Shown: piece after piece, positions 1,966 to 54,261 of the stretch
Layout: each line of letters begins with the position of its first letter
Position numbering within the stretch: the stretch's first letter is position 1
Source: Prorocentrum cordatum
Taxonomy: Eukaryota
Reading direction: 5' to 3'
Assembly: GCA_963575745.1 (NCBI GenBank)
Contig: CAUYUJ010000152.1
Coordinates: forward strand, 62,001-117,556
Length of the DNA stretch: 55,556 bases
Translations under genes and position numbers: made by a program
Notes under the pieces: generated by a model
What the model saw: only the letters and a program-made list of their open reading frames with translations
Databases searched by the model: none
What the model was told of the DNA's origin: nothing

Positions 1966-2065
1966 NNNNNNNNNNNNNNNNNNNNNNNNNNNNNNNNNNN
2001 NNNNNNNNNNNNNNNNNNNNNNNNNNNNNNNNNNNNNNNNNNNNNNNNNNNNNNNNNNNNNNNNN
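1966..2065. other. assembly gap (100 N)
   Basis: Exactly 100 N, typical scaffolding spacer. Confidence 0.99.
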
Positions 2066-17777: not shown

Positions 17778-20429
17778 TTAAACGGGTTTACCCGCAGCGG
17801 CCCGCTTGGCTCGCTCAGCTTTGCTATATTGTTTGGGCCATAAACCCTGTTGAATTCGATTAAGGTAGTCTTGCCGACTACGCTTAGGTTCACACTCCTT
17901 GGACAACTTAGCCAGCTGCTCAGCGGCAAAGCTTCCACATGTAGTACAAAACCATACCCCCAGTCCAGCATGATATTTAAGATGGTGAGACGGATGTGCA
18001 TATCCCCCCCCTACGTGCACCCGCAGCCCTGGAGGGGGTTCCCACACTACACCATCGCCCGTGGAAAGGGAAAAACACGGAGAGTCCAGCCAGGCCTTCT
18101 TCTGGGCCTGAGAGGTCGACCCCTTACAACGATTACAACTAAGACCTGACTCAGACAACTGATGCTGAGAGCTGAACATACTACAAACAGCAGGGGCAGG
18201 CGGCCTAGGTCCTGGGTGCCTCAGACGGGGCCTCGGGCCCTCAGAATTCTGCTCAGACTCTATAGCTTCTAGCGTACTCAGGAGAATTCGCATTCGTACG
18301 AGATAAGCCATGCGCTCGGTACGATATACACGTGCACGCACATCGTCCTGGACACGAAAAGTGCTCGCAGCTACACCAGCAAGCTCGTCGGCTACTGCAT
18401 TCCCTAAAATGAAGGGCACTGGGGTCCGACGCTGGCACATATCGATGGCTTCCTGATGCGAGTGCACAAAGATGACTGTGACCTTCAACTGAGACCCTCT
18501 GGCCTTCAGAACGGTGCCGATCAGAAACCAGAGGTCAGCATTTTCACCTGAGGGGCTGGCGGGGTGGCCGCTGTACCAGCCAGAACATACAGCAGCATTG
18601 TCCGTGACAAATATAACGTGGCCACTGCCGCCGCGCACCGTGAGGTACAGGGCGTATAGCTCACCACGTGCCACCGTCTGAACATCTCCTGGAAGGCCAC
18701 CCCAGATGCCGATCTCGATCATCATATCGGGGGTCAGCTCAGAGTAAACTGCCACCGCCAGGCCGACCCGCCGTAAGGCGGCGTCACTGGTGTCCTTCCC
18801 TCCGCTGGCGTCGCCGAACACGTAGGTGGGGTTGTCCTCTGAACCGTGTGGGAAACACGCCTCGTCGAAGCTGTGGATGCCGTGGCATGTCCAGTCCTCA
18901 CTCTGAATCGGCTTGGGCACCTCCAGCCATGGCTCGGGAATCAAGCCGCGCACCCAGAAGCAAGCCTCGGCCTCACGGCCAGTCTGCGCCCTGGCTGCGA
19001 ACTCATCAGACAATTCGTATATCTCATGAGGCTTGCGGCCTGTACACTCCCAAATCCTGTGAAAAGACGTCTCTTTGCATTCTTTGCACCGTGTACAAAC
19101 TTCTGAAATACTCTGCTTGGACCGCTGCTGCCGTCTAGCTCGGGGCCACGCGGCGCCTGCAGCGGAGGCCAAAAGCAGGCCTGCCAAGCGACGACCGCCT
19201 GGCGCTGCCTCCAGTTGGCGAAGCAGTTGACGATAAGAAGCATTGTGAACTCCTTGCTCCATCCCAGCACCATCGAAATGAGATGAAGCCTCAAACCACA
19301 GCTGTCTTTGGATCGTGCGGGTGAACTCTGTGAAGAACTGCTGGGGAATGTCAATGCAACTGAAACCTGTGAGATTCTCGACCTTAAACTCCCAGCTGTT
19401 GACCATGCCAGTGTTATCAGAAGGAATCTGCCACTCTGACGGACTGATGGGATCCCACCCAGCCTCAAGCAAGTACGTGATGACTGTACCTTGAGGCCCA
19501 CGGATGAAACGATGCCGTCGCTCGGGGGACATACCCCGTAGCTCCTGCGCCAGACGCCGCCACGACTGATTGATTCCAGACCTGATGTGGGGGGCGGACG
19601 TCCAGCATGACAGCCATAGCCGTAGGCAATCCACTGGCATCTTGAAAGCTGGGTCGCGCTGATGAGCGCGAAGGTCGAGCAATGTAGTTAAACACCGCCC
19701 TGACAACCTCGGTGCAACTGCATTCGCAACTTTACGTCGTACTTGCAACATCTGCTGTCCGAATAATCCGTGAATTTGATGACCATATGTGCCTGCAGCT
19801 TGGGCGCCCTGCTGCTCGAGACGGCTCGTCAAGCCGTACCGCCTCGTCGCACGGGCGTACTGCAGAACTTTCCTACTCATCCGATTGTGCTTGGCGGTCC
19901 TGGCGGTCCGAGTGGCCCTAGCATGCCGCTTGCCGCCGCCCATATCACCACCAAGGTAAGCTGTCTGGCCCACCGCGTTGATGTGATACCCCCTGAGCCG
20001 TAGACGTCGGGCGATCACCTTCGCGTCGCACATCCGCGTGCAAAGGATCACGCTCTTCGGGGAGACCTGCAGGCCAGCTGACTGGATGGCCTCGCAAGTA
20101 TCTGACAAACATTGCACCATCTTGGAAACCATGGCTCGTCTCGACGCACGATAGCTCTGGCTCAGGTCGTCAATCCAAAGCCTATGCGCCATGTCCACGT
20201 GCACCGTCGTGATCCGAGCCATGATGTGGTACGTGACGCACTTGGCAAAGCGCGTCCCAGCTCTGAGACCCTGGACGATCGATCTCGTGGGGTCGAAGGG
20301 AGCTGAGTACGCGCCTGCCTGGCGCACACAACGCGAGGCCATGCACTGCAGCAGCTCCAGCCCCAGAATCTCCGCGGGGAAATTGAGCTTGAGCGCCGTC
20401 TGACCAAGCAACAGCCACCCGATGGTGTC

Positions 20430-20506
<77 letters not shown>

Positions 20507-20538
20507 AAAAAAAAAAAAAAAAAAAAAAAAAACAAAAA

Positions 20539-20573
<35 letters not shown>

Positions 20574-23495
20574 AAAAAAAAACAAAAAAAAAAAACAAAA
20601 AAAAAAAAAAAAAAAGGAAATAAAAGCTGGCTAGGTCTATGAGGCCGTGCCCGTACTCGGTAGACAACCGCACTGCCAGCTCCTCGTCGATCGCCCGCAA
20701 GAAGACCTCGCGAATCGCCGAGTTGCCGCGGATGGCAGCATCCCAGTGCGCCTCGCACTGGTCCGTCCAGGTGCGCACGTGCACCTCGCGAGCAGCCGAC
20801 CAGAGCCGCGCCAGGTGAGGAAGCAGCCCTATCACGCGGTCCCCCTTCAGCTTCTTGGGAAGCAGGGTGCCGATGGTCAGCATGAGTTGGTGCGGCCATA
20901 CTTGTCGAGCCTCACACACGTTGAGCAGTGCTGCCAACTCATCGAGAGCTGGGCCAGGAAGGCGAGACGTGTCCAACGGTGTCAGACGATCTACCCCCAT
21001 CGCACCACACTTCATACGATCAGATGCCTCTCGCAGGGTAACACCATCAAGAGGTGGAAGAGCCTCATCTGCAACACGTTGCCGAATCTCCTGAAAAAGC
21101 CCGTGTAGCTCGCTCAACGGCTGGCCAGACGGGCCCCAAAGAGAGACCCAGTGTTTCCTTTTATGATCCATGATGTCCTTGGGGTGCACCACTGATGTGC
21201 CGTCCACCTCCAAGGTGTCGCTGACAAGTGGCTGCTCACGAAGAGCCCTGTGCAGGGTACTCACTGCAGGCGCTGTCTCAGCCCAAGTGCGGAACTCACT
21301 CATTGCCTGGCTGAGAGCACGTCGCTGCGCCCGTCTAGCGACCTTGTCAGCTGCCTCTGAGACAATCTTGAGCTCCTCCAAGGAACTCTCACCGGTACGA
21401 CCGAGAAACTGCAGCCAAAAGTCCCAAGAGTAGCGATCAGCTGGACGAACCACCTGGTGGCCGCGCTCGGGGGCCTCCTCCCTGAGACGTGCCACTGCAT
21501 CCACCAGGAGGAACTGCTGCTTGATGCCTGTATCCTTATCACGATATCTCGCCAGCGCACTAAGCACAGTAGACACACGCGTCCACCAACTGGCAATCTT
21601 ATCCCTGAGTGCAACCTCTCTTGCAGGTTTAGCCTCCTGAACTTCTGTCTCAAGAAACTCGACAGCGTCGCCGCGCGATCTGCCGAGGGCGACCTGACCG
21701 TGATGGGAGTGTACGGTCGACTCCACTGCCTGGAACCAGGCCGCGAACAGGGCTGAAACGAGGCCTGAATCGCTGGAGCAGAGCCTAAAGGCTACGGAGG
21801 AGGCAACAGCAGGAGCAGGAGGGCAGGCAGACGCAGGCAGAAACCCTACATCTTTCCGCTGTTCCGTCCACACACACAGAAACAAACGAAAATAACAAAA
21901 AAGAACAAAGTATACATAGACAAAAGAAAAAAATAATAAACACCCTCACGGAACCAAACAAAAAACAAAACCAAAAAAAAAAAAAAAGAAAAAACCACAC
22001 AAACAGTAAAAAGACATAAAAAGAGAAAAACAAGAGTCCACAGCTGCTCTGAAATCATGAAACTCACAGCTGGAGAAACGGGGGACCCTGAACTCTCCTC
22101 TGGTGGTGCGGACCCTGACTCGACAGGGGCGGTGCACGGGGTGGGGGTTTCATGCTGGACTGAATTCGACTGAGGCTGATCGACCACAGGGAAGGCAGGG
22201 GCGGTCGGGGCAGCCAGTCCGAAGTTGGCCTCGTGGATCCACGGGTCCTCCTCACTGCTGTCGGAGTCGGGGTCCTCACCACCGAAACCTGTTTCCGCCT
22301 CGCTGCCTACTCTACTGATGGGATCATGCGAAACACAACCAGTATGCTCAACCTTGCTACTGCTACAAAGTCCGAGCTGCTCACTAAACCACTCACGCAC
22401 TTTACAATCACGACGCTCGCGTGCAACCTGCTGCGCAACCCTACGCTGAGCCTTGGCCTTACTAGCTTTGGACCCTGGGATCGGCTGCTTGGAAGGCCGA
22501 GCTACAATTGGCAACTGCTTAGGGAGAGCGAGCACACGAGTGAGCATCTGACTGCCTGAGGCGACTATCTCAACGCTAAGACCGATGTGTGGCCTCCAGG
22601 GAACGTCAACAACAGCCGAAACAGATCTCAAATATGGCCTCGCAGCTTCATTGAATACTACAAAGTCAATGTGCGAAGATTTTTGCTTGCCGCCTGGTGT
22701 ACAGGTAAACTCGGCGTCGGAGGTCCAGACAGATCCTCCAACTCGCGAAAGAAAGTCCGACCTTCTAAGGTCGGCTGGGGAAACATTCCAGTCAGCCAGA
22801 ACTAGCCACGGCAAATGGATCGCCGTCAGCACGCTGCCTAGCTTGGCGAAACGATTCACATTCTGATGTGTGAAGCCCATGCCGGAGAGACCGTAGTAAA
22901 TGAACACAGCGAGCGTGAAGCCCTTCATGTCTAAAAGGCATGGAAGAAACCCATCCAGGACTCCTCCACGCTCAGCCTGAAGTTGGGGACTCATGAGGGC
23001 GGCGTCGAGCATGCGAACAGGCCGATGATTGCGTGCCAGCAGCCACTCACCGCCTTCATTGGAATGCTGCTGATCAGCCTTGGCATAGCGAGACTTGGGC
23101 CTGGCACCATTGTGGAGCAGGCGCAGTGATGAACTTTTAGCTTTGCCAATCCATTTCCGAGTATCTTGCTTGCTAACATGCGTCTCGCAGACGCCCAGGT
23201 AGTCGTGCGTGTCGCTGAGCTCGGTCAAGCGCCCCCAGGCCTTGTCGCCCATGCACGTCACGTTACTGAAGAAAATCTTTGCAGTGAGGTCTGGCTGCTG
23301 CTGCGCACCCTGCTCACTGCTCCCCGAAATAGTAGAGGTGGTAGAAGTAGGCGCCGTACTGCTCGAGCCCTCTGAAGCAGTCGTGGCACCCACCTCGCTT
23401 GGTGTGGCCGTAGATGTACTGGTATCAAGCGCTGTAGTGGTGGCGGCGTCCGAGCCCACAGCGGCGCTGGCGCTGGTGAGCTCCGCCGTGGATAG
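17778..23495 (-). CDS. LINE ORF2/pol: AP endonuclease, reverse transcriptase, CCHC zinc finger, RNase H, C-terminal Cys/His motifs (interrupted by two A-rich inserts)
   Basis: APE: FFSNV, GVCETH, LADWN, SHIDF, RPH. RT: LPKK..GDRVIGL, IDLASF/YD, IVQG, WIDD (20166-20177), YLG. Zn finger: CTRC..ETSFHRIWEC. RNase H: FGDAS, QTVARGEL, VTDN, NADLW, HSH, GNAVADELA. Track ORFs 21846-23459, 20182-21885 and 17778-20585 join into 1785 codons after removing 170+190 bp. Confidence 0.93.
20431..20620 (+). other. 190-bp poly(A)-like insert in RT motif A, bounded by TAAAA direct repeats
   Basis: TAAAA at 20431 and 20621; removal yields GAC CTA GCC AGC TTT TAC GAC (DLASFYD) on the minus strand. Confidence 0.9.
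21866..22035 (+). other. 170-bp A-rich insert in the ORF2 linker, bounded by GTCCACA direct repeats
   Basis: GTCCACA at 21866 and 22036; removal yields EQLWTEQRK in frame. Confidence 0.88.
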
Positions 23496-43916: not shown

Positions 43917-44026
<110 letters not shown>

Positions 44027-44183
44027 CGAATGGTCACTCCGCCCAGCGCGCGGCCGCAGCCGCGCCCGCGGGGGGCCTGGACTCCACCTGAGGAGCCCAG
44101 GACCCCCCGACCGCGAGGTCGATGAGGACGACCCCTCAGACCACGACGGCCAACGCGCCGTCGGGCACCACGAACACGAACGG

Positions 44184-44852
44184 CTACCCCGTCTCGCCGC
44201 GCTGGGCCAGCATCTGCTCCAAATGGCCGACCATGGCGTGCAGCTCGACCGGGCCGAGCGACGGGGTCCGCTCGGTGGGCAGGCCCAGGCGCCCAGCCAG
44301 GCCAGCAGCGCGCCAACGGAGCTCCACCACCTCGGAGCTCGCACCCCTGGTCTTGTCCTTGCCTGCGCCGCCCTTGGCCTTGCTCTTGTCCACGCCCTTG
44401 CCCAGGCCCGCGTCGCCCGCAGGGCGGCCGCGCCTCCGCACCAGCGGCAGCTCGTCCGCCCACTCGTCGGACTCCATCGGCTCGGCGACGACGATGGCCC
44501 CCGCGCCCACCACCGCCTCAGCCGCCCCACCACCCGGGGCCTTCTCCTCCACGACTCCGTGCATCTCGTCCTGCACTTCCACCTCTTTCGGGCCGCCGCG
44601 GCCGCGCGGGCGACGGCGCCGGGCCGGCGCCACCGGGGGGCCCACGTCGTCCGTCGAGGCGGGGGGGGCAGGCTGCATGCCGAGATCGGCGATCGCCGTG
44701 CGGATGAGCCCCTCCGCCGCCCGCAGGAGGCGCGCCGACGCGCGCTGACCTCCTGCGGCGGCCAAGCCCGCTGCCGCGTGAACTGCCATCAAGGCCCCTC
44801 GCGAGGCCTCCAGCGGCGCCGCGGCGCGGTCGCACTTCGTCGTACCCGGCAT
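44184..44852 (-). CDS. Ala/Gly-rich ORF (222 aa), probable retroelement ORF1-like or retrocopy
   Basis: ATG 33 nt after an SL-like 16-mer. Amphipathic N-terminus AVHAAAGL...ARLLRAAEGLIRTAIADL. Lies between (CCT)n and (TC)n tracts. Function not recognisable. Confidence 0.45.
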   Translation of the reverse strand: MPGTTKCDRAAAPLEASRGALMAVHAAAGLAAAGGQRASARLLRAAEGLIRTAIADLGMQPAPPASTDDVGPPVAPARRRRPRGRGGPKEVEVQDEMHGVVEEKAPGGGAAEAVVGAGAIVVAEPMESDEWADELPLVRRRGRPAGDAGLGKGVDKSKAKGGAGKDKTRGASSEVVELRWRAAGLAGRLGLPTERTPSLGPVELHAMVGHLEQMLAQRGETG

Positions 44853-45079
44853 CGGAGCGGCGGCGGCGGACCAGCGAGCACACGACCTGAGCCAAGACGG
44901 TACTAGGAGGAGGAGGAGGAGGAGGGGGAGAGGGAGGAGGAGGAGGAGGAGGAGGAGGAGGAGGAGGAGGGAAAGGAGGTGGAGGGAAAGGAGGTGGAGG
45001 AGGAGGAGGAAGAGGAGCATGATGAGGGACAGGAGGAAAAAGAGGAAGAGGAGGAGGAGGAGGAGAAGGAGGAAGAGGA

Positions 45080-45770
45080 GGACCACTGTAAACCCAAGAG
45101 TCATCAACGATGTTGGAATGAATTCTCCCTCCTCCAAGCTCCCTCTTCATAGGCCCCTACTACGGTTCATTTCCACTGAGGGGAACTGCCTCGTCGGAAA
45201 AGAACCGTTTGAAGACTCTGAAACATGCCAAAACATTGTTCTCGGGATTCCAACGCAACAGATCAACTTGACTGTTGCATCTGGACGATCATGCATCGTA
45301 CCAGAACGCCATTCCTGGGACTGCAACACCACGAATCAACGTAACTGTTGCGCCCTCACAATCCGGAATCGTTTCAAAACGCCAGTTCTGATACGTTGAT
45401 CATGGGAATCCACGAAACCGTTGCACATGTTATGAACGACTGTGCGCGGCGCTAATGCGAGAACCTCATTTTGAAAACCATCCGCCCTCAATCACTGAAA
45501 CTGTTGCAAATTTGCAAAGCGAATCTGCGCGGCGTTAAAGCGAGAACCACACTTTGAAAATCATCCGCCATCAATCCGTGAAGCTCTTGCAAATTCTTCA
45601 AACGAATGTGCGCGGCGCCAAGGCGAGAGCCACATTTTGAAAACCAACCGCCCTCCATCTGCGAAGCGGTTGCCAATGTTCCAACTTCAGGGTCATAAAT
45701 GGTGAAGAAATCTCGGGCGAAACGCCCAGCCCGCCCTAAAAACTGGCCGCGGGGTGCGACAGGGGGAAGG
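45080..45770 (-). repeat. dispersed repeat family A, copy 2 (subrepeat x3)
   Basis: Inverted homolog of 2492-3090, followed by the same CCTGTCCCTCATCATGCTCC-containing CCT tail. Confidence 0.9.
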
Positions 45771-46199
45771 TATTTAGAAGAAGAAGGAATGGAGGAGGAG
45801 GAAAAGGAGGAGGATGAGGCGGAGGGGGGATGCCAGCAGGATTCCAACAGGACCTCGTGATGGTGAATGGCTCTGGGAGTTTCACGCCAAACGCCCAGAA
45901 CGGCACCGTCCAAGCTAACCTCGAGTGAAATTAGGTCGGTGCCCAACAAAAAACCAAAGCCGCGTTCGAGGAGCGGGAACCCGCACAAAAGCGCCCTCGA
46001 AGGTCGACCCGAAAAAAACTGCTTCAATCCGAAGAACCCGAGGACACAGACTGGTGATCAGAACGCTCCTCGGCCGCCGCTTCGAGGCGCTGGGCGTTTT
46101 TCACTGCAGTCAGCGCATGGGTTTCCGCCAGCCTGACGTTTGGGGGCTGGGCGGCTTCGGACCAAACGACGCCTGGGCTCATGTGGCGCCTCGTCGGCG

Positions 46200-48271
46200 G
46201 CGGTCCCTAAACAGTGACTCGTCGTGCGTTACTGCTGCGGGTCCGCCGCATCCTGGAAACAGAAAGCGTCCGATGCGTGCAAGGTTCTCCTTCCCCTTCT
46301 TCGAAGGCGAAGAAGGCGGGCAGACAGCAAATGGCGCGGGTCCACCACTGCTTCGCGGCCGCATCGGGCACAGAAGACAAGCGAGTGCCTTGGCCAGAAC
46401 TGCGGCGCATGCGACGGATGAAGTTCCTTCCCCCCAACCCGAACTCCCGACCCCGCCGCCCGAGCCCCATCAACAGTTTCGCGCAAAGCCACTTCTCAAC
46501 CTGCGGGGAGCCCGCACTCCGTGGTACATGCCGTCTTGATCGCAGACTTGGGTATCATCGTGTGACGAGTGCTGCAAAATAACTTCTTCGAGCCATGCAA
46601 GACGAATGAATGCTGGCTGGCTAAAGTCATATCGGCCACCGCGACCCTGCTCCGACGCTCAGCGGACACTGGTTCGCGCGCTCGCACTCTGTCAGATCGA
46701 GTCTCGGCCAGCGCTGCAACAATTTGCCCGCCAATGTACAAACCGCCTTTGACACTCTGACACATACATTGAACAACTATTGCCTTTGTTCCGTGGCTAC
46801 TGGGTGAGGGCCGGCTCCAGCCTTCGCTGCTTTGTCAGCGGAGTCATTGCCTAGCCTACGGCATCTCTCTTGGGGTTATATGTTGACCTCGTTGGGGTCG
46901 AGGTGGGCCTGGACTTTGTAAACCTTTTGAAATACGTTGTGAACCTTGCTGAAACAAGATCATGGAACCAGCGTGGGGGCGCTTATAGGAAAACTGGGGC
47001 TCCCTTGGGGCCTGGGCGTGGTCGATAACGCTTTTACAATCGCTATACACCGAGGGCGGGCCTGTAACTTCTATTCCAGCTCTCGCCATTGCGGTGAATT
47101 CTCCGCGCAGTAGCGTCTGCGGGAAAGGAGCGAAAATAGGTGCGTGAATAGTGCGCTGCACTGTCCCGCCCTCGTCGACCAGACGAAGACCATGCCTGGC
47201 CCTCGAAAGTTCCGAGACAGGATGTTTAAGACAGCGCCTAAGGCGCCTATCCGCAAATATTGAACCGCAGAAACTGCCATCATCAGGGGTGGGAGCGTTC
47301 CAAACAACCTTCGCCTCGAAATCTTGGGACCGAGCCTGGGGCCGAGGGAAAACGTCGCCAGGGTGCAGGAAAACTCCCCTACAAAACAGGCGCTCGGTCA
47401 AGGGGTCCGACGGTTCAGCTGCGGCAGCGGCGTCGATGATGTATTGATCGACCAGGTCGCCTCTGGGCTCATCGTGGCATGGACACTCCCGGTGCCTGTG
47501 AAACTGCGCATCTGACGCCTGGCCGCATTGATCGCAACCATCGTTGTCTAGGACGTAGCCGGCTTGGACGGCGCAGCCTTTTCGTCCGCGGACCGTCGCG
47601 ACGCAGACTGCGAATCCTTCCTTTCTCCACCGGCGACCAGCGTTTCGATCGAAAATGTCCTTTTTTATGATGCCAAAACACAATCGATCGCAAAGGAGGC
47701 TAAGATTGTCGCTGGAGTCTCGCTCAAGCTGACGGAAGACCGCGTCGCGGAGCAGTGTCTTGAGTAACGCTGGTGCCACCGATGTTAGTTGGATGGTTTC
47801 ACCGAAGTCCGAGACAAGGGTCGCGAAATCCGACATGCTCCGGCCTATCCTAGCAACAGGCAAACGCGGCCGTTAAGGGCCCACTGATGTTTCTCCACTT
47901 GGGCATCGGCCCTCGAAAGGCCTCGCTCCGAAACTGCCTCACGGTGGGAAGGGGGAGGGTATGAAGGTACGCGCGGGCATGGGCGGCCCAAACCTCTTTG
48001 CTATATCTGACACTGGGGGCAACAGAACCGATCCAGGCGGGGTCGTCCTGGACAAGAAGGGTGCAAGTAAGGGATCTGCCCCCGCGCGGGGCCTCAAAAC
48101 TCTCCCCGCTTCGCGACTAAGTTTCGCGAGCTCAGAATCCGAAATGCCATGCACTTCGGCTCCGTAAAGAATTCCTGGCAGCGCTCCCGAGTGCGATACC
48201 CAGTGGTTGCAAAAAACTTGGGTCTGTCCTCGGATCGGAGGCCCCCACTTGGTCCACAGGGGACCTGGAGC
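46200..48271 (-). pseudogene. 5'-truncated, frameshifted RNase H-bearing LINE (post-RT, Zn finger, RNase H, C-terminal Zn finger)
   Basis: GALPGILYGAEVHG...RVLRPR (parallels GAQAAGTYGHQIHG...AVAPR of the intact ORF2); CDQCG..DAQFHRHREC; IFAD, PQTLLRGEF, VYSDC, GNDSADKAAK (~46850); FCARCG. Confidence 0.88.
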
Positions 48272-48292
48272 CTTGAGCCAAAATGGCCACGG
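48272..48292 (-). other. relict dinoflagellate spliced leader
   Basis: CCGTGGCCATTTTGGCTCAAG versus DinoSL (D)CCGTAGCCATTTTGGCTCAAG, 20/21. Not followed by a GT SL-RNA intron start. Confidence 0.9.
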
Positions 48293-49199
48293 GGGAGGAG
48301 TAGGATCAGGAGCGTGATGAGGGACAGGAGGAGGAGGAGGAGCATGATGAGGGACAATAGGAGGAGGAGGAGGAGGAGGGGGAGGAGGAGGTGGAGGTGG
48401 AGGATGGATGGATGGACTCGGCATTGCGCTGTGAGTCTGAAGACACCCACCCCACGAGCTCACGAAACGAGAGATCGCTCGGGGACACCTCTGAGCAGTC
48501 GTGCGATCTCCTCGGACCGAACGAGGTCAGGCGTGTGGGCGCGCCGTGCAGCTGTGATCACCTTTGATCAGAGCCGAGCAGGACAGGAAACAGGAAGACG
48601 CCCGCGGGCGGGGGGTGCAACCCCTCTGGCCTCTGGGGGCCGAGCTCGACGGCGCGGAGGGCACCGAGCAGGCCCCCTGGACACCCAGAGGCCCCGGGAA
48701 GGAAAACAACCAAGCCGAAAGAGCCGACGGCGCGCCCTAGAGACCAGGGGCGGCGAGAGCGACTAGAGGGGCCTGGTGCTACAGCGAAGCTACTGGAGGG
48801 ACTCACGACGTCAGGTAGTGTGCTGGTCGCCCATCTCTTTCCGTAGGATCCGCCATCCATGTCAGCCCTTCTGGCCGTAGTGGATCTGGCGGTTCTTGTC
48901 TAGCAGTTTCTGGGCCATCGATTCCAGGTGGCCCAGAGGGGCCGTCCCCATCTTCTGGCGGCCGCCCAGAACGTCGAGGCATGTCTCCCGAGGGCCGTCC
49001 GGGTTGACGCTCTTCAGTGTGATCTGGTCCGCGTTAGCGAACTGCATCCTGGTGTACTGGTCGTTGTGGCGCGTGCGCAGCCTGAGGTGGAGCAGAGCTC
49101 CGAGCCCGTCCCCATGCAAACGAACTGCTGGTAGAAGGTGCGCGGGAGCACGTGCCCCTGCGGGGCCTCCTGCTCCACGGAGGCCGACGGGTACTTGAA

Positions 49200-50388
49200 C
49201 TCGGCGTGAGCGATGTACAAGTGTGGTGAGTTGGGGCTTCGCCTCGGGGACCTGCTCCGCTTCTGCGTACATCTTGCCCGCTTCCCGAGCTGCGACGATC
49301 GAAGTAGCCGTGGGCGGGGTCGCGATGCTGATCCATTCCGAGGCCGCGAGGTCCCTGAGCTGCTGGGCGCGCTGGCGCGCCATCTTGGGGAGGAACGTGG
49401 CCGCCTGCTGCAGGTCGCGCGACTTCAGGGCGCCCTCCAGACGAAGCATGATCGTGTCGTAGTCCCAGGTGTGCAGCGCGTGGGCCTCGAAAATGTCGCC
49501 CGCGTAGACAGAGCGGTGGTCTCGATCGTACAATGTGTTGAGGCGGCGTCCTGCTCCGATGGGGGCCTTGCACTTGCGCGGGGCGTGGAGGAAGTCGATC
49601 CTGCGTGACCGTCCGTGCGCCCCGATGAAGGTGTCCCCGCTGACAAAGAAGGTGTCGTGGTCCGAGAGGAACCGTTGCCAAAGACGTCCAGAAAGGCCTT
49701 CCAGCTCCAGGAAGGGGCCCACGGCGCTGTCGACCTCGCTCCACAAGTCGGGCTCGAGCAGGGACGGGGGGCCGAGAAACGTCTCGTCCACGGAGTCGCC
49801 GAGCTGAGGTCCGCCCCGCTGATGGGCGCGCGTCGACTGCCCACAGACTCCAGCGTGGTGCGTGCCCACGAGATCATAGCCTGGGTCACCTGGCGGTATG
49901 AGTTGCGGCTGGAGCAGGACTCGGATGGCACGGAAAGGTGCCGAACCATGAGGAGCACGTCCGAGGAGCGGCACTGTCGCGCCGCAGCGGCCCGAGAGCG
50001 CCGCGGGCGGAGGGTAGATCCGACGTAGGTGTGCCTGCGGAAACCGCTGATGTAGGAAGCTGCTCCCCCCGCAACTCTTGTTGGTCCAGCCGAAGGAGAG
50101 CTCCCAGTGGTAGTCGTGCTGAAAGAGGCTGTGGCGGCCGACCAGTGTCGGGCGGCGGCTCGTCCCAGGGAAGAGGATCACGCCCATGTAGTGCTCGCAG
50201 ATGATCTCCTGCGCGCGGGTGCTGCCCGTCAGGTAGAGAGGGTTGTACACGTAGAGCCTGGTGTGCTGAGCAGGTTGCGGCTCTCGCTCCTGAGTGCGTC
50301 CAGGGGCGCGGCAAGCGCCTGTCGACATGTAGGCGGCCGCCCGCGGCGAGAAGCCGACGGCCGCGAGCAAGAGGAGAGCCTCCATCAT
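49200..50388 (-). pseudogene. LINE AP-endonuclease domain (5' part of an element; RT missing)
   Basis: RLYVYNP, VILFPGT, NKSCG, SGRCGA, TFIG...RRIDF, DRDHRSV in ORF 48862-50388. Some catalytic motifs eroded. Confidence 0.7.
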
Positions 50389-50620
50389 GGGCCTCTTGGG
50401 TCCCGCGGGCGCGTGGGCATCGCGCGCTGCTCCCCTGGCGGGCGATGAAACAGGGTGGGAGGGCCGCGTGTTCCTCGACCTTCAGCCGTGACGGCGGCTG
50501 GAGGTGGAGGAGGAGGAGGAGCGCGAGGAAGAGGAGGAGGAGGAGGAGGAGGAGGAGGAGGAGGAGGAGGAGGAGGAGGAGGAGGAGGAGGAGGAGGGAG
50601 GGCCGAGGACATGGGGAGGA

Positions 50621-50683
50621 CAAGCGGCATGAACATGAACTTTCGGAGGTCCGCGCGGATCTCCCGGATCGGCGCTGGACCCC
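50621..50683 (+). repeat. 63-bp dispersed repeat family D (second copy 51202-51264; related sequence at ~16992-17031)
   Basis: CAAGCGGCATG.ACATGAACTTTCG.AG.TCCGCGCGGATCTC.CGGATCGGCGCTGGACCCC. Confidence 0.9.
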
Positions 50684-52736
50684 TGCCCTCGGCACACGGA
50701 GCGCACCAGGGACGGCGCCAGGGGCGCCGCCAAGGGGTGGGCCCCCCTGCGGATCTGTTTCTGCCATGTGCTTTTCTCTTCCGAGGCGCACCACAGGGAG
50801 GGGGGAAGCGAAGATAGAGGCGCACAGAAGGCAGGAGGCAATGCGGCGGGATGGCAGATGGAGCACACTCAAGACACTCAGACTCTGGAGCAGCTTGGGC
50901 TCGCGGAGGGGGCTCCTGGGGCCACTCTGCGGCCGCCCCTCTGGCGCTCCTCGTGCAACCGAATGCTCCCAGGGCCCAACGATGGATCGATAACGCCGAG
51001 TCTGTACGACACATCGGCTGCAGAATTGCCGTCGGTTGGAGGCCTATGTCCAGTCCAGAGCACAACAAGTAAAGACAGCTCAGGAAAATAGCGTCCCGGC
51101 TGGCGATTATCTTCCACACGTGCGGGTTACAGCGTTCATCATTTGCGCCATTGAGACACATCGCTCTCCTGAGCAGTCGTTCCTTATTCAGAGGGGAAAA
51201 GCAAGCGGCATGCACATGAACTTTCGTAGCTCCGCGCGGATCTCTCGGATCGGCGCTGGACCCCATGGCGCACTCCGCGCGCCAGGGAGGGGGGGCCGAT
51301 GCAGATCTAGCAAATCCTCGCGGACTGCTAACAGTTTATGCTTCCGTCGTAAATAGTCTCTGCATCCAACGATTGCCATGGTAGTACGATCGGCAAGAAC
51401 ATGAGACCCTCCACCGGCCAAAACACGCCAAGCCATAAGATCACTCGAGGGTACCCCCCCGGATGCACAAGAGCATCCAACAAACACGAAGAGCATTAGG
51501 ATACCCTCCCCGAACCGACCTCGATCTTATACCTCGGTCCGACCGTAGCTTGACTGCATGGGGAGGGGGGGGAGGGGGAAAGCTCCTCCCCCGTCCCCGT
51601 GCGCCGACTGGAGGCAGAGCTGGATAGGCGTCTCTTCATTCCGAGTTTCGACATTTGGCCGAAGGATGGGGGAGGCGGGGGGGGGTCTGGGTCTGGGCCG
51701 GTGCTCAGTCGATCTGCTTCCACCAGCCGCGCCAGCGGATTGGAGAGAAGGTGTCCTGACCAGTCAGCAAAACAGCCAGAATCTGGTCTATGGAGGGGGT
51801 GGGGAGGGGGGAGGCCAAGGGCCCACGCCGATGTGCGAATCAATAGATAAACAACAACGGCGACAAGGAAGATCCGCGCAACGACGTCTTTTTTCTCGAG
51901 CTGCCGCCCGCGGCCCGGCCGCCGGATAGAGAGCACGCCCGTGAGCACAGCCTGCTCAGACAACGGCTCCACGTGTGGTCTGAACAGACAGATTTCGGAG
52001 GCGAGCAAGGGGGCGAAAAGGAGAAGGGGCGGGCCTTTTCATGGGCTCGGAAACCCCCTGGCCTTCTGAGAAATTTTCTAAGCCTTCCACGGAGACGCAG
52101 AACACCTCTCAGAAGTCACGAGGATTTCTGAGAAGTCCCGCCGCCTTTTGAGAAGGCCTTTTCCTTCTCACTTCCCCCTCTCGTTCGCCGCCGAAAATTG
52201 GAGCTCAAAACAATTTCCCTGCCCAGCGCCGTCGGTCCGAAGTCGAGGGCGACGTCCCTAACCCCCATCCTGCTCCCCGTCTTTGACGCCCGTCCCTCGC
52301 CTCCTCCTCCTCCTCCTTCTCCCTCTTTCTTAGAAACAACTCCTCCGTGTAGCACCACCAAACGCGTCCTTAGGGCGGGCTGGGCGTTTCGCCTGATATT
52401 TCCTGACAACTTACTCTTCCGTAGCCTTTGATTTCCAACAGCCGCACATATGGATCATCCACCATTTTCATAATGTGGCACTTCCATGATTGGCAAGCGC
52501 ATGTGCCGCAACCAAGTCCATCAACTTTACGTATGGAGGGGTGGTCGTTGTCAAAACGTGGCTCTCGCCCCAACGGCACGCACATTCGTTTCAAGCAGTT
52601 CCGCCAACCGTTTCACGGATGGATGGCTGGGTTTCCAGACTGATGATCTCGCCCTGGTGAAGCGCGTACTGTCTTCAAGCAGTGTACAATTGCTCGGATG
52701 AAGGCGGGTACGTTCTTGACATGTAGTTCTCGTATG

Positions 52737-52903
52737 TGAAGGGGCCCTGGGACACACAAATAAATACACACACACACACATAGAAATGTTCCCCATATTT
52801 TCACATATTTTCTGGGTTTTTGTTTTCCCGCCCAATTCCCATATTTTCCCATATTTTCCTTGGAATCGACGATTCATTGTGTCTGTGTTTTTTCCCCTCC
52901 TGA
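52737..52903. mobile_element. 167-bp element M3, copy 2, 5-bp TSD GTATG
   Basis: GTATG|TGAAGGGG...CCCCTCCTGA|GTATG, homologous to 37526-37689. Left-truncated third copy ends at 53235. Confidence 0.85.
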
Positions 52904-54261
52904 GTATGGGACTTCCTCAACACGTAAACGGGAGGGGGTATGGACCCTCCAAGACAAGCCATTTCAGACGCCCCCTCGTGAGAGAACCCTCGAAAACATT
53001 GTCCCCAGACCCCCCCAGGCCCTCCAAGATAGCCTGGAAGAGACCCCCCCCGAAATGAGACCCCCCTCCCTTTATTACGAAATCTGGAGTACGTTCTTGA
53101 CATGTAGTTCTCCCTGGAATCCCAATTCCCGCCCCATTCCCATATTTTCCTGTCTTCCCGCCCAATTCCTATATTTTCCCATATTTTCCCTGGAATCGAC
53201 GATTCATTGTGTCTGCGTGTTTCTTCCCCTCCTGAGTACGGCAGGTTCGTGTCGTGTCGACCCCAGCGTTGGTTTTTGACACCGCGGGGATCGTTCAACC
53301 TTGAACGATCGGCCGCTGCCGCAACGTCCGATCGTTCAACATCGATCGATTCTGGGTCGCCAGCGGCGTTCAACCTTGAACGCCCGCGCTGGGGTCGCCG
53401 CTGGTCGACACGACGCAAACCTACCGTACGGGACTCCCTCCACACGTGAACTGGTGCCACAGTGGCACGGACGGAGGGCGGGCTCTCTTTCTTCAAAAAG
53501 GGGGCTCTCGCCCGAGGTCGTGAGATCTTGCGACCAGAATGAAGCTCGTCCTCGCTCGTCCTCCTCGCCAAGGATTGCAAAAAAACCAAGGATTGCAATC
53601 CTTGTTTTTTTTGCAATCCTTCGTTTTTTTTGCAACCCTCCTCCTTCCCTTCGCGGCCGTCCTCCTTCTCCTCCTCCCGTCCTCCCTCCCCCTCCACTTC
53701 CTCGTCGTCCACTCCCTCCCCCGTCCCCCCTCGTCATCTGCTCTTCCTTCTCCTCCTCCTTCTCACCTTCCCGTCTCGTCCTCTTCGTCCCCCTTCTCGA
53801 CCAAGGCGCCGCTGATGCAAGGGAACCAGAACAAAACGGCGACAGGAATCTGTCGCCGGGCGAGCTGGGCAATACCGACCCCAGGACGAAGCCTGTAAGC
53901 CTGGGCGCCGGACCCAGGGGACCTTCGCCACAGCCGGTGTCCGCCGAGGAGCATAGGCGGAGGTGCGGCGGGAGGAGGGGCGCGGGGGAAGGGAAGGGGG
54001 AGGGGCGGAGAGGAGGATGGGGTCAAGGAGGAACAGATGACGGTGGGGAGCAAGAGGGGGAGGAGAAGAAGGGCGAGGGGAGAGTGGGAAGGTGGCCTGG
54101 AGCTGGGATGCGCATGTCTTCGCCACCGTGCTCCTTGGCACACCGAGGCGTGCTGCTGCATGCAAATGAGAGACCTCCCTCGACTAGTGGAGTGCCGCGT
54201 GCACCCCCCCCTCACGAGGCCACGCTCCCTTGTAAGCAACAGTGGGACAGCGCTAGCATCA

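What the first reader, a model, noticed from the sequence alone, without database searches (positions are those of the whole stretch)
48272..48292. Near-perfect spliced leader fused to the middle of a LINE ORF2
Seen: a 20/21 DinoSL match follows a CCT-rich tract. Within about 100 nt the sequence reads as post-RT ORF2 (GALPGILYGAEVHG), with ORF1, endonuclease and RT core absent. Established: relict SLs mark reverse-transcribed mRNAs in dinoflagellate genomes, and ordinary LINE 5' truncations carry no leader. Inference: a LINE transcript was trans-spliced at a cryptic internal acceptor and then retroposed, or the RT template-switched onto SL RNA. Either would be an SL-dependent route to truncated copies, or a subgenomic RNase H transcript.
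Basis: partly seen in the sequence, partly recalled or inferred. Interest (0 to 1): 0.8.

Follow-up and report, generated by a model that had tools for sequence, protein, structure and literature searches.

The report
Spliced-leader-tagged dead LINE fragment
A decayed copy of the back third of a jumping-gene (LINE) protein gene in a dinoflagellate genome carries the organism's mRNA spliced leader at its front end, which most likely marks it as a reverse-transcribed copy of a trans-spliced LINE-derived RNA rather than an ordinary truncated insertion.

Summary
On the minus strand, 48292-48272 reads CCGTGGCCATTTTGGCTCAAG, 20 of 21 DinoSL bases. It is the only such site in the window and appeared in 0 of 100 shuffles. 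A CCT-rich tract precedes it.

Homology to LINE ORF2 starts 36 nt after it. It runs from 48235 to 46633 and covers post-RT thumb, zinc knuckle and RNase H. At least three frameshifts and several stops break it. No endonuclease or RT core lies within about 4.7 kb upstream or 2.6 kb downstream.

Best reading: a processed, now dead retrocopy of an SL-trans-spliced RNA carrying the 3' part of a LINE.

The 36-nt leader (48271-48236) matches neither the conserved basic linker of relatives nor the SL RNA introns I could fetch. The acceptor may therefore have lain in the flank of an already truncated copy.

I found no target-site duplication, no poly(A) and no second SL-LINE junction. No listed contig bridges the junction.

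DinoSL-tagged retrocopies, including RT-annotated ones, are already in print at the GO-term level. I score this as a new member of a known kind, of moderate interest.

The parts
48272..48292 (-). Relict dinoflagellate spliced leader, 20/21 (A>G at base 5 of the 21-mer)
   Evidence: It is also the only hit of the SL RNA covariance model R1 in the window: 25.4 bits, model positions 2-23.
48236..48271 (-). 36-nt leader of unassigned origin between the SL and the first ORF2 homology. It begins with GC.
   Evidence: It does not match the basic linker of relatives. It does not match SL RNA introns. There is no other copy in the window or in the fetched loci. Folding gives no signal, with z from -0.34 to +0.86.
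47877..48235 (-). LINE ORF2 post-RT ('thumb') segment including GALPGILYGAEVHG. It is split over two frames, with a shift near 48083/48080.
   Evidence: tblastn HSPs of P0017 from residue 973, P0044 from 1142 and P0141 from 1084.
46856..47872 (-). 338-aa open frame: linker, CCHC zinc knuckle (about 47536-47483) and the N-terminal two thirds of an RNase H-like domain.
   Evidence: Invariant C113, C116, H125 and C130 in alignment A2. It overlaps the Pfam RNase_H regions of P0039 and P0044.
46633..46932 (-). End of the RNase H-like domain (KVQAH..GNDSADKAAK) in another frame, with internal stops.
   Evidence: tblastn HSPs of P0044, P0080, P0096 and P0120.
48293..48416 (-). CCT-rich low-complexity tract directly 5' of the SL. 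It is probably target or spacer DNA, not part of the retrocopy.
   Evidence: It resembles other tracts in the window more closely than the next downstream tract.
48862..50390 (-). Upstream neighbour on the same strand: a member of a multicopy family of uncharacterised ~440-aa proteins. Its 3' UTR is about 48861-48417. It is not LINE.
   Evidence: Five relatives at 75-88% identity. No Pfam family. No LINE homology.

Best explanation
I read this as a processed retrocopy (pseudogene) of an SL-trans-spliced RNA whose body was the 3' part of an APE-type LINE: thumb, zinc knuckle, RNase H and 3' region.

Proposed sequence of events:
1. A LINE-derived pol II transcript received the 22-nt DinoSL at an AG acceptor. 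The transcript came either from a full element or, as I think somewhat more likely, from an already 5'-truncated copy read through from its flank.
2. The capped RNA was reverse-transcribed to its 5' end.
3. The cDNA integrated next to a CCT-rich tract downstream of an unrelated multicopy gene.
4. The copy has since decayed: 1 change in the SL, at least 3 frameshifts, and stops.

Shown: the SL, the ORF2 identity and extent, the absence of EN/RT, and the decay.

Inferred: trans-splicing and retroposition as the origin, the position of the acceptor, and which enzyme made the copy.
For: - The SL is unique in the window and far beyond chance.
- It ends exactly at ...CTCAAG and faces the LINE fragment on the same strand, with ORF2 homology from 36 nt downstream.
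- The family is a genuine LINE. Pfam finds RVT_1, Exo_endo_phos and RNase_H in relatives. A profile of 12 relatives hits human LINE-1 ORF2p at E=1.6e-9 and exonuclease III at 2.5e-5.
- No EN or RT homology lies upstream. The upstream DNA is a different gene.
- There is no SL RNA or 5S gene context (Rfam: 0 hits). The intron part of the SL RNA model is not matched.
- Relict DinoSLs are the accepted mark of retroposed mRNAs (passages read in PMC5585692, PMC7245778 and PMC3229502).
- Song et al. report the GO term 'RNA-dependent DNA replication' enriched among DinoSL-relict retrogenes (passage). SL-tagged RT-type copies are therefore expected.
- X1 contigs identical to the window cover 46641-46791, 47040-47232 and 48094-48260. 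Diverged contigs (for example 41 differences in 282 nt) show that paralogues exist.
Against: - I found no target-site duplication: no shared 9-mer or longer between the leader and 45000-46700, and no specific match between the 5' flank and the downstream tract.
- There is no poly(A) remnant on the element's strand in 45300-47000, and the 3' end is undefined.
- No parent copy was seen.
- The 36-nt leader is unexplained.
- No listed contig bridges the junction, so the join rests on the assembly alone.
- Only one case was found: 0 LINE next to the SL in 119 viral-collection stretches (about 599 kb, median GC 0.21, so mostly other organisms), and 0 in 21 MAG stretches.
Confidence: 0.6

Rival explanations
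1. The reader's strict version, which is a sub-case of the best explanation: the acceptor was a cryptic AG inside ORF2 of a full-length LINE transcript. Trans-splicing itself would then have created the truncation, possibly at a recurrent site.
For: The frame is open from the SL through the first ORF2 homology. A weak match, IRGQTQVF against the relatives' xxTK[IV]F, brings homology to within 12 codons of the SL.
Against: The 12 codons APGPLWTKWGPP lack the R/K-rich stretch that all 13 aligned relatives covering that stretch have just upstream. There is no recurrence: a metagenome scan for SL + N{80,110} + YGxxVxG gave 1 hit, and it is not LINE. The N-termini of 107 relatives show no peak at the junction, with 5 in the 120-149 bin.
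Confidence: 0.22
2. A chimeric retrocopy made by template switching (or RNA ligation) between a LINE RNA and free SL RNA, like the U6/L1 chimeras of mammals. Under this model, the SL exon plus the 36 nt would be the whole ~58-nt SL RNA.
For: - 21 + 36 nt falls within the 50-60 nt reported for SL RNAs (passages in PMC5029490 and PMC6616646).
- The leader starts with GC, and SL introns in Fugacium are reported to start with GU or GC.
- There is borderline likeness (p=0.04) to the consensus that follows the SL in 7 X1 contigs.
- U6/L1 and fungal LINE chimeras are known (abstracts listed).
Against: - Six SL RNA genes from four contaminant sources all read SL|GTAC..hairpin..T-run.
- The model built from them matches only positions 2-23 in the window.
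- Pairwise tests against the introns gave p>=0.67.
- There is no T-run at the expected place and no fold signal.
Confidence: 0.08
3. Two unrelated events: an ordinary 5'-truncated LINE inserted by chance into the 5' UTR of an older SL-tagged retrogene. The SL and the 36 nt would then belong to another gene.
For: The 36-nt leader is not LINE-like. Both SL relicts and LINE fragments are frequent in such genomes, so by my own rough estimate (not a tool result) some such coincidences are expected genome-wide.
Against: There is no TSD around the LINE part. No recognisable gene continues downstream; the ORFs in 45300-46600 look non-coding, but I did not search them. By the same rough estimate, retrocopies of LINE-derived transcripts should outnumber such coincidences about tenfold.
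Confidence: 0.1
4. An assembly or rearrangement artefact: the SL, a very high-copy 21-mer, joins two unrelated contig ends.
For: Listed X1 contigs stop at 48260 and resume in the SL bin. None of the listed pieces has 31 nt or more on both sides.
Against: Unitigs are expected to break at a high-copy word anyway. One contig carries an insertion after 48262, and depth at 48262 exceeds that contig alone, so some contigs run closer to the SL (table 4). Strand and order are what retroposition predicts.
Confidence: 0.05

Closest known systems
DinoSL-relict retrogenes / processed pseudogenes of dinoflagellates (Slamovits & Keeling 2008, recalled; Song et al. 2017, PMC5585692, passages read)
   Same: A DNA-encoded, slightly decayed SL sits at the 5' edge of an intron-free copy on the same strand. 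Song et al. note RT-related GO terms enriched among such copies.
   Different: The body is a fragment of a mobile element rather than a host gene. No start codon or intact ORF, poly(A), TSD or parent was seen.
Ordinary 5'-truncated LINE insertions (incomplete target-primed reverse transcription)
   Same: Only the 3' part of ORF2 is present, and it is decayed.
   Different: An ordinary truncation carries no leader. Here a complete SL sits 36 nt ahead of the truncation point.
U6/L1 and other LINE chimeric retrocopies (PMC4476161, PMC6789731, PMC2104539; abstracts in a search listing only)
   Same: A small spliceosomal-type RNA sequence lies at the 5' end of a 5'-truncated LINE.
   Different: The part after the SL exon does not match the SL RNA introns available. 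Trans-splicing gives the same exon-body join without any template switch.
SL-gene-specific non-LTR elements (SLACS, CZAR, CRE, NeSL; recalled, not read here)
   Same: A LINE lies next to spliced-leader sequence.
   Different: Those elements insert inside SL RNA gene arrays and split the SL exon, and they use a restriction-like endonuclease. Here the SL is whole and single, there is no SL or 5S array, and relatives carry an APE endonuclease.
L1Tc/ingi of trypanosomatids (PMC1874656, PMC8190864; abstracts in a search listing)
   Same: LINEs living in an organism where mRNAs are SL-trans-spliced.
   Different: Those elements use an internal promoter (Pr77) that gives unspliced transcripts. This copy suggests a trans-spliced LINE-derived RNA.

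Membership tests
Non-LTR retrotransposon (LINE) ORF2, APE type | Reverse transcriptase domain | tested here: not met
   It is absent from this copy: there is no RT homology in 44000-53000 outside 46633-48235. It is present in relatives: RVT_1 in 8 of 14 scanned, and the profile hits L1 ORF2p at 1.6e-9. The locus is therefore a fragment of a member, not a whole member.
Non-LTR retrotransposon (LINE) ORF2, APE type | Apurinic-type endonuclease at the N-terminus | tested here: not met
   Absent here. Present in 5 of 14 relatives, and the profile hits exonuclease III.
Non-LTR retrotransposon (LINE) ORF2, APE type | Post-RT thumb, CCHC knuckle and RNase H collinear with full-length members | tested here: met
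   Collinear tblastn alignments to P0017 973-1372, P0039 991-1416, P0044 1142-1665 and others. Invariant C, C, H, C in alignment A2. Pfam itself finds nothing in the window's frames.
DinoSL-tagged retrocopy | SL sequence encoded in DNA at the 5' edge, same strand as the body | tested here: met
DinoSL-tagged retrocopy | Marks of retroposition at the other end (poly(A) or element tail, target-site duplication) | tested here: not met
   No A-run and no TSD were found. The 3' end is undefined, so this is weak.
DinoSL-tagged retrocopy | Parent copy lacking the SL elsewhere in the genome | not testable with these tools
   No genome is held. Only diverged short contigs in run X1 hint at paralogues.
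snRNA/LINE chimeric retrocopy (U6/L1 type) | Whole small RNA, including its non-exon part, at the 5' end | tested here: inconclusive
   The SL RNA model from other dinoflagellates matches the exon only. The SL RNA of this species was not available (papers not held).
SL-gene-targeting LINE (NeSL/SLACS type) | Insertion within an SL RNA gene array, with the SL exon split | tested here: not met
   One complete SL only. No intron match. No 5S or other RNA gene.

The most novel reading that the evidence does not exclude
In dinoflagellates, LINE RNAs are regular substrates of SL trans-splicing at internal or flank acceptors. The resulting capped, truncated RNAs keep the element's 3' end, so the LINE machinery mobilises them again. 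This would be a SINE-like second life for LINE tails. Part of what is annotated as '5'-truncated LINEs' would then be recycled SL-RNAs rather than aborted reverse transcription.
Probability: 0.15. Interest if true: 0.65.

Novelty: new member of a known kind. Interest (0 to 1): 0.4.

Why it matters
If SL-tagged LINE fragments are common, three things follow.
- Trans-splicing acts on transposon RNA in dinoflagellates.
- The 'retroposition' and 'retrotransposition' that some genome papers treat as independent (preprint 10.1101/783902, passage) share substrates.
- Counts and ages of truncated LINEs in these very large genomes would need re-reading.

A single decayed copy shows only that it happened at least once.

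Tried and rejected
**Genome and window**
- Own genome: not held.
- Pfam on six window frames: nothing usable.
- Self-comparison of the window: only low-complexity matches.

**Protein searches**
- Word-index search, near lengths: 1 hit, P0001.
- Word-index search with the first 110 aa, 'longer' lengths: none.
- tblastn of all 156 stored proteins for homology upstream of 48235: only proline-run noise.
- PDB by single sequence (P0039): 0 hits.

**Sequencing runs**
- No RNA holder is listed.
- The best DNA holder has a share of 0.25.
- The laid contigs do not bridge the junction.
- Depth figures of contigs cannot rank copy number, so I draw nothing from them.

**RNA families and folding**
- Rfam over the whole window: 0 hits.
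- Folding of the SL plus leader: no signal.

**Collection scans**
- Viral contigs SL scan: 119 stretches, none with LINE homology (0 hits at E<=1e-5; best of 7 at E<=1 was 0.09). Median GC is 0.21, so these are mostly other organisms.
- The search for related loci in viral contigs with the 338-aa frame: none.
It gave one chance hit (L120, not LINE). No scan for LINE relatives in metagenomes was therefore possible.
- Genome contigs SL scan: 21 stretches, 0 LINE.

**Junction features**
- TSD searches: none found.
- Leader against the window and loci: nothing.
- The idea that CCT tracts are LINE tails or split targets was dropped. The tracts are too frequent (45 in the window), and the two flanking tracts are not specially alike.

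**Earlier findings**
- Three look-ups: nothing.

**Papers**
- Zhang 2007 and Zhang 2009, which hold SL RNA genes including a Prorocentrum species according to PMC6616646, are not held (mistyped; 51, 52, 54).
- Searches, and passages read, gave no explicit description of an SL relict fused to LINE ORF2. Supplements were not opened and may list such genes.

Full report
**What is there**

The finding is on the minus strand. Bases 48292-48272 read CCGTGGCCATTTTGGCTCAAG, which is 20 of 21 bases of the dinoflagellate spliced leader. It is the only match with up to 3 mismatches in the window, and none occurred in 100 dinucleotide shuffles. No other site reaches 15/21, whereas 20 mononucleotide shuffles gave 0-6 such sites. 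The base ahead of it is C, so the variable first SL base is not kept. A CCT-rich tract (about 48416-48293) lies directly 5' of it. Such tracts are common here, with 29 on this strand and 16 on the other.

**What follows the leader**

Three overlapping minus-strand frames carry coding-like sequence: 48271-47942, 48116-47853 and 47872-46856. Pfam sees nothing in them.

The 338-aa frame finds 300 proteins at E<=1e-3 in the representative library, 89 of them at E<=1e-10. I scanned 14 of these hits:
- 8 carry RVT_1
- 5 carry Exo_endo_phos
- 5 carry RNase_H
- 2 carry zf-RVT
- 3 carry nothing

Several scores are under Pfam's own cut-off. In P0039 the order is endonuclease 98-293, RT 701-913, RNase H 1320-1467.

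A profile of 12 long relatives hits human LINE-1 ORF2p (E=1.6e-9), exonuclease III (2.5e-5), a group II intron RT and a retroviral RNase H. P0039 alone hit nothing in the PDB. The family is therefore an APE-type LINE with a C-terminal zinc knuckle and RNase H.

**Extent and state of the fragment**

tblastn of the relatives of 900 aa or more against 44000-53000 gave HSPs only between 48235 and 46633 on the minus strand. They start about 70 residues after the end of the relatives' RVT_1 match (P0017 residue 973, P0044 1142, P0141 1084). In P0039 numbering that is about 110 residues after the YxDD box.

For single relatives the HSPs fall in four frame segments. For P0044 these are 48223-48083, 48080-47934, 47863-47000 and 46917-46705. 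So there are at least three frameshifts, plus stops at 47939, 47850 and 46856 and inside the RNase H end. The copy is dead.

No endonuclease or RT core lies nearby. The DNA upstream on the same strand is a member of a multicopy family of uncharacterised ~440-aa proteins (48862-50390; relatives at 75-88% identity). A second, much more complete but distant LINE lies at 18261-22940, also on the minus strand. It has no SL.

**The 36 nucleotides in between**

Solid homology begins at 48199-48190 (SGALPGILYGAEV). A weaker gapped extension (IRGQTQVF against xxTK[IV]F) reaches 48235.

The 12 codons between that point and the SL (APGPLWTKWGPP) do not resemble the strongly basic linker that all 13 aligned relatives covering that stretch have there. 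The closest relatives are only about 25-50% identical, so this is suggestive, not proof.

The leader has no other copy in the window or in any fetched locus. It shows no folding signal, with z from -0.34 to +0.86.

**Is it SL RNA intron?**

Its start (GC) and the total length of 21+36 nt fit what reviews say of dinoflagellate SL RNAs: 50-60 nt, with introns starting GU or GC in Fugacium.

To test this I used SL RNA genes that turned up as contaminants in prokaryote MAG contigs. There are six copies from four sources. All read SL|GTAC, then a hairpin, then a T-run, with an intron of about 37 nt. A covariance model built from them finds the window's SL at 25.4 bits but aligns only model positions 2-23 of 68, which is the exon plus one base. 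Pairwise tests of the leader against these introns gave p>=0.67.

The one borderline signal (p=0.04) is a likeness to the consensus that follows the SL in seven contigs of run X1. I could not tell what those contigs are. The SL RNA genes of this species, or of its named relatives, are in papers that are not held. The chimera model is weakened but not excluded.

**Marks of retroposition**

There is no A-run on the element's strand in 45300-47000. The leader and 45000-46700 share no 9-mer or longer. The 5' flank matches other CCT tracts in the window better than the next downstream tract. The 3' end of the insert is therefore undefined.

**Independent sequence support**

No RNA holder was listed; see Tried and rejected. 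X1 contigs identical to the window cover 46641-46791, 47040-47232 and 48094-48260. Other X1 contigs differ by 10-17%, so paralogues exist. None of the listed pieces spans the SL with 31 nt on both sides. X1 may be the sample the window was assembled from.

**Recurrence**

| Test | Result |
|---|---|
| SL 21-mer in viral contigs | 119 stretches (about 599 kb, median GC 0.21), none with LINE homology |
| SL 21-mer in genome contigs | 21 stretches, none with LINE homology |
| Metagenome pattern asking for an SL 80-110 nt ahead of YGxxVxG | one hit, not LINE |
| Predicted N-termini of 107 relatives | spread evenly; 5 fall in the 30-residue bin holding the junction position |

These collections mostly hold other organisms, so the blanks are weak.

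**Reading**

The exact end of the SL at ...CAAG, its strand, the missing front of the element and the unrelated upstream gene fit a retroposed trans-spliced RNA best. Relict SLs are the accepted mark of this (passages). Song et al. already report RT-related GO terms enriched among SL-relict retrogenes. [quoted passage not shown]

Whether the acceptor was inside ORF2 or in the flank of a pre-truncated copy cannot be decided here. The non-LINE look of the leader tips me to the flank. Rivals are a chance nested LINE insertion into an SL-retrogene's 5' UTR, an SL RNA/LINE chimera, and a misjoin.

My prior odds between these rest on rough counts of my own, not on a tool.

**Verdict**

It is a clear single example of an SL-tagged LINE fragment, decayed and apparently not amplified. 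It is a new member of the known class of DinoSL retrocopies.

Noticed in passing
L001-L119 (IMG/VR contigs, mostly GVMAG bins), e.g. L011, L012, L020, L053, L071, L106: The exact DinoSL 21-mer is DNA-encoded at many gene starts in very AT-rich (median GC 0.21) giant-virus-bin contigs. At 46 of 132 unique sites it directly follows one of two conserved AT-rich 25-mers (30 + 16). An ORF usually starts 0-90 nt after it. 6 of 14 such ORFs scanned are DUF4116 repeat proteins. It looks like a promoter-SL-gene cassette, possibly viral mimicry of host mRNA 5' ends. A search for 'DinoSL' + 'giant virus' found 4 papers, 3 of them listed; none of the 3 titles or abstract openings points to this (listing only).
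   Followed up: partly
L126/L141, L127/L128, L133, L140 (contigs filed under prokaryote MAGs): These are genuine dinoflagellate SL RNA genes sitting as contaminants in bacterial MAGs. Their build is conserved: A + SL exon, then GTAC, an 8-bp hairpin ending GGCC/GCCC, then a T-run, with an intron of about 37 nt. In L127 and L133 there are two copies per contig.
   Followed up: partly
window 18261-22940 (-): A much more complete LINE of a distant family. Endonuclease, RT, thumb, zinc knuckle and RNase H are all detectable, with long stretches in one frame. It has no SL.
   Followed up: partly
window 48417-50390 (-) and run X1/X2/X3/X6 contigs: The upstream gene belongs to a multicopy family of uncharacterised ~440-aa proteins, with relatives at 75-88% identity and no Pfam family. 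Part of its 3' UTR (48506-48656) is found without any difference in a contig of a run labelled freshwater metagenome.
   Followed up: no
whole window: There are 45 CT-rich/AG-rich low-complexity tracts of 40-280 nt (29 pyrimidine-rich on the minus strand, 16 on the plus strand), roughly one per 1.2 kb. One sits about 100 nt ahead of the upstream gene's start and one directly ahead of the SL. Their role (spacer, acceptor tract or insertion target) is open.
   Followed up: partly
window 45435-45667: An 83-nt tandem repeat, 2.8 copies, 81% matches, downstream of the LINE fragment on the same locus.
   Followed up: no
window 1966-2065: A run of 100 N (assembly gap).
   Followed up: no
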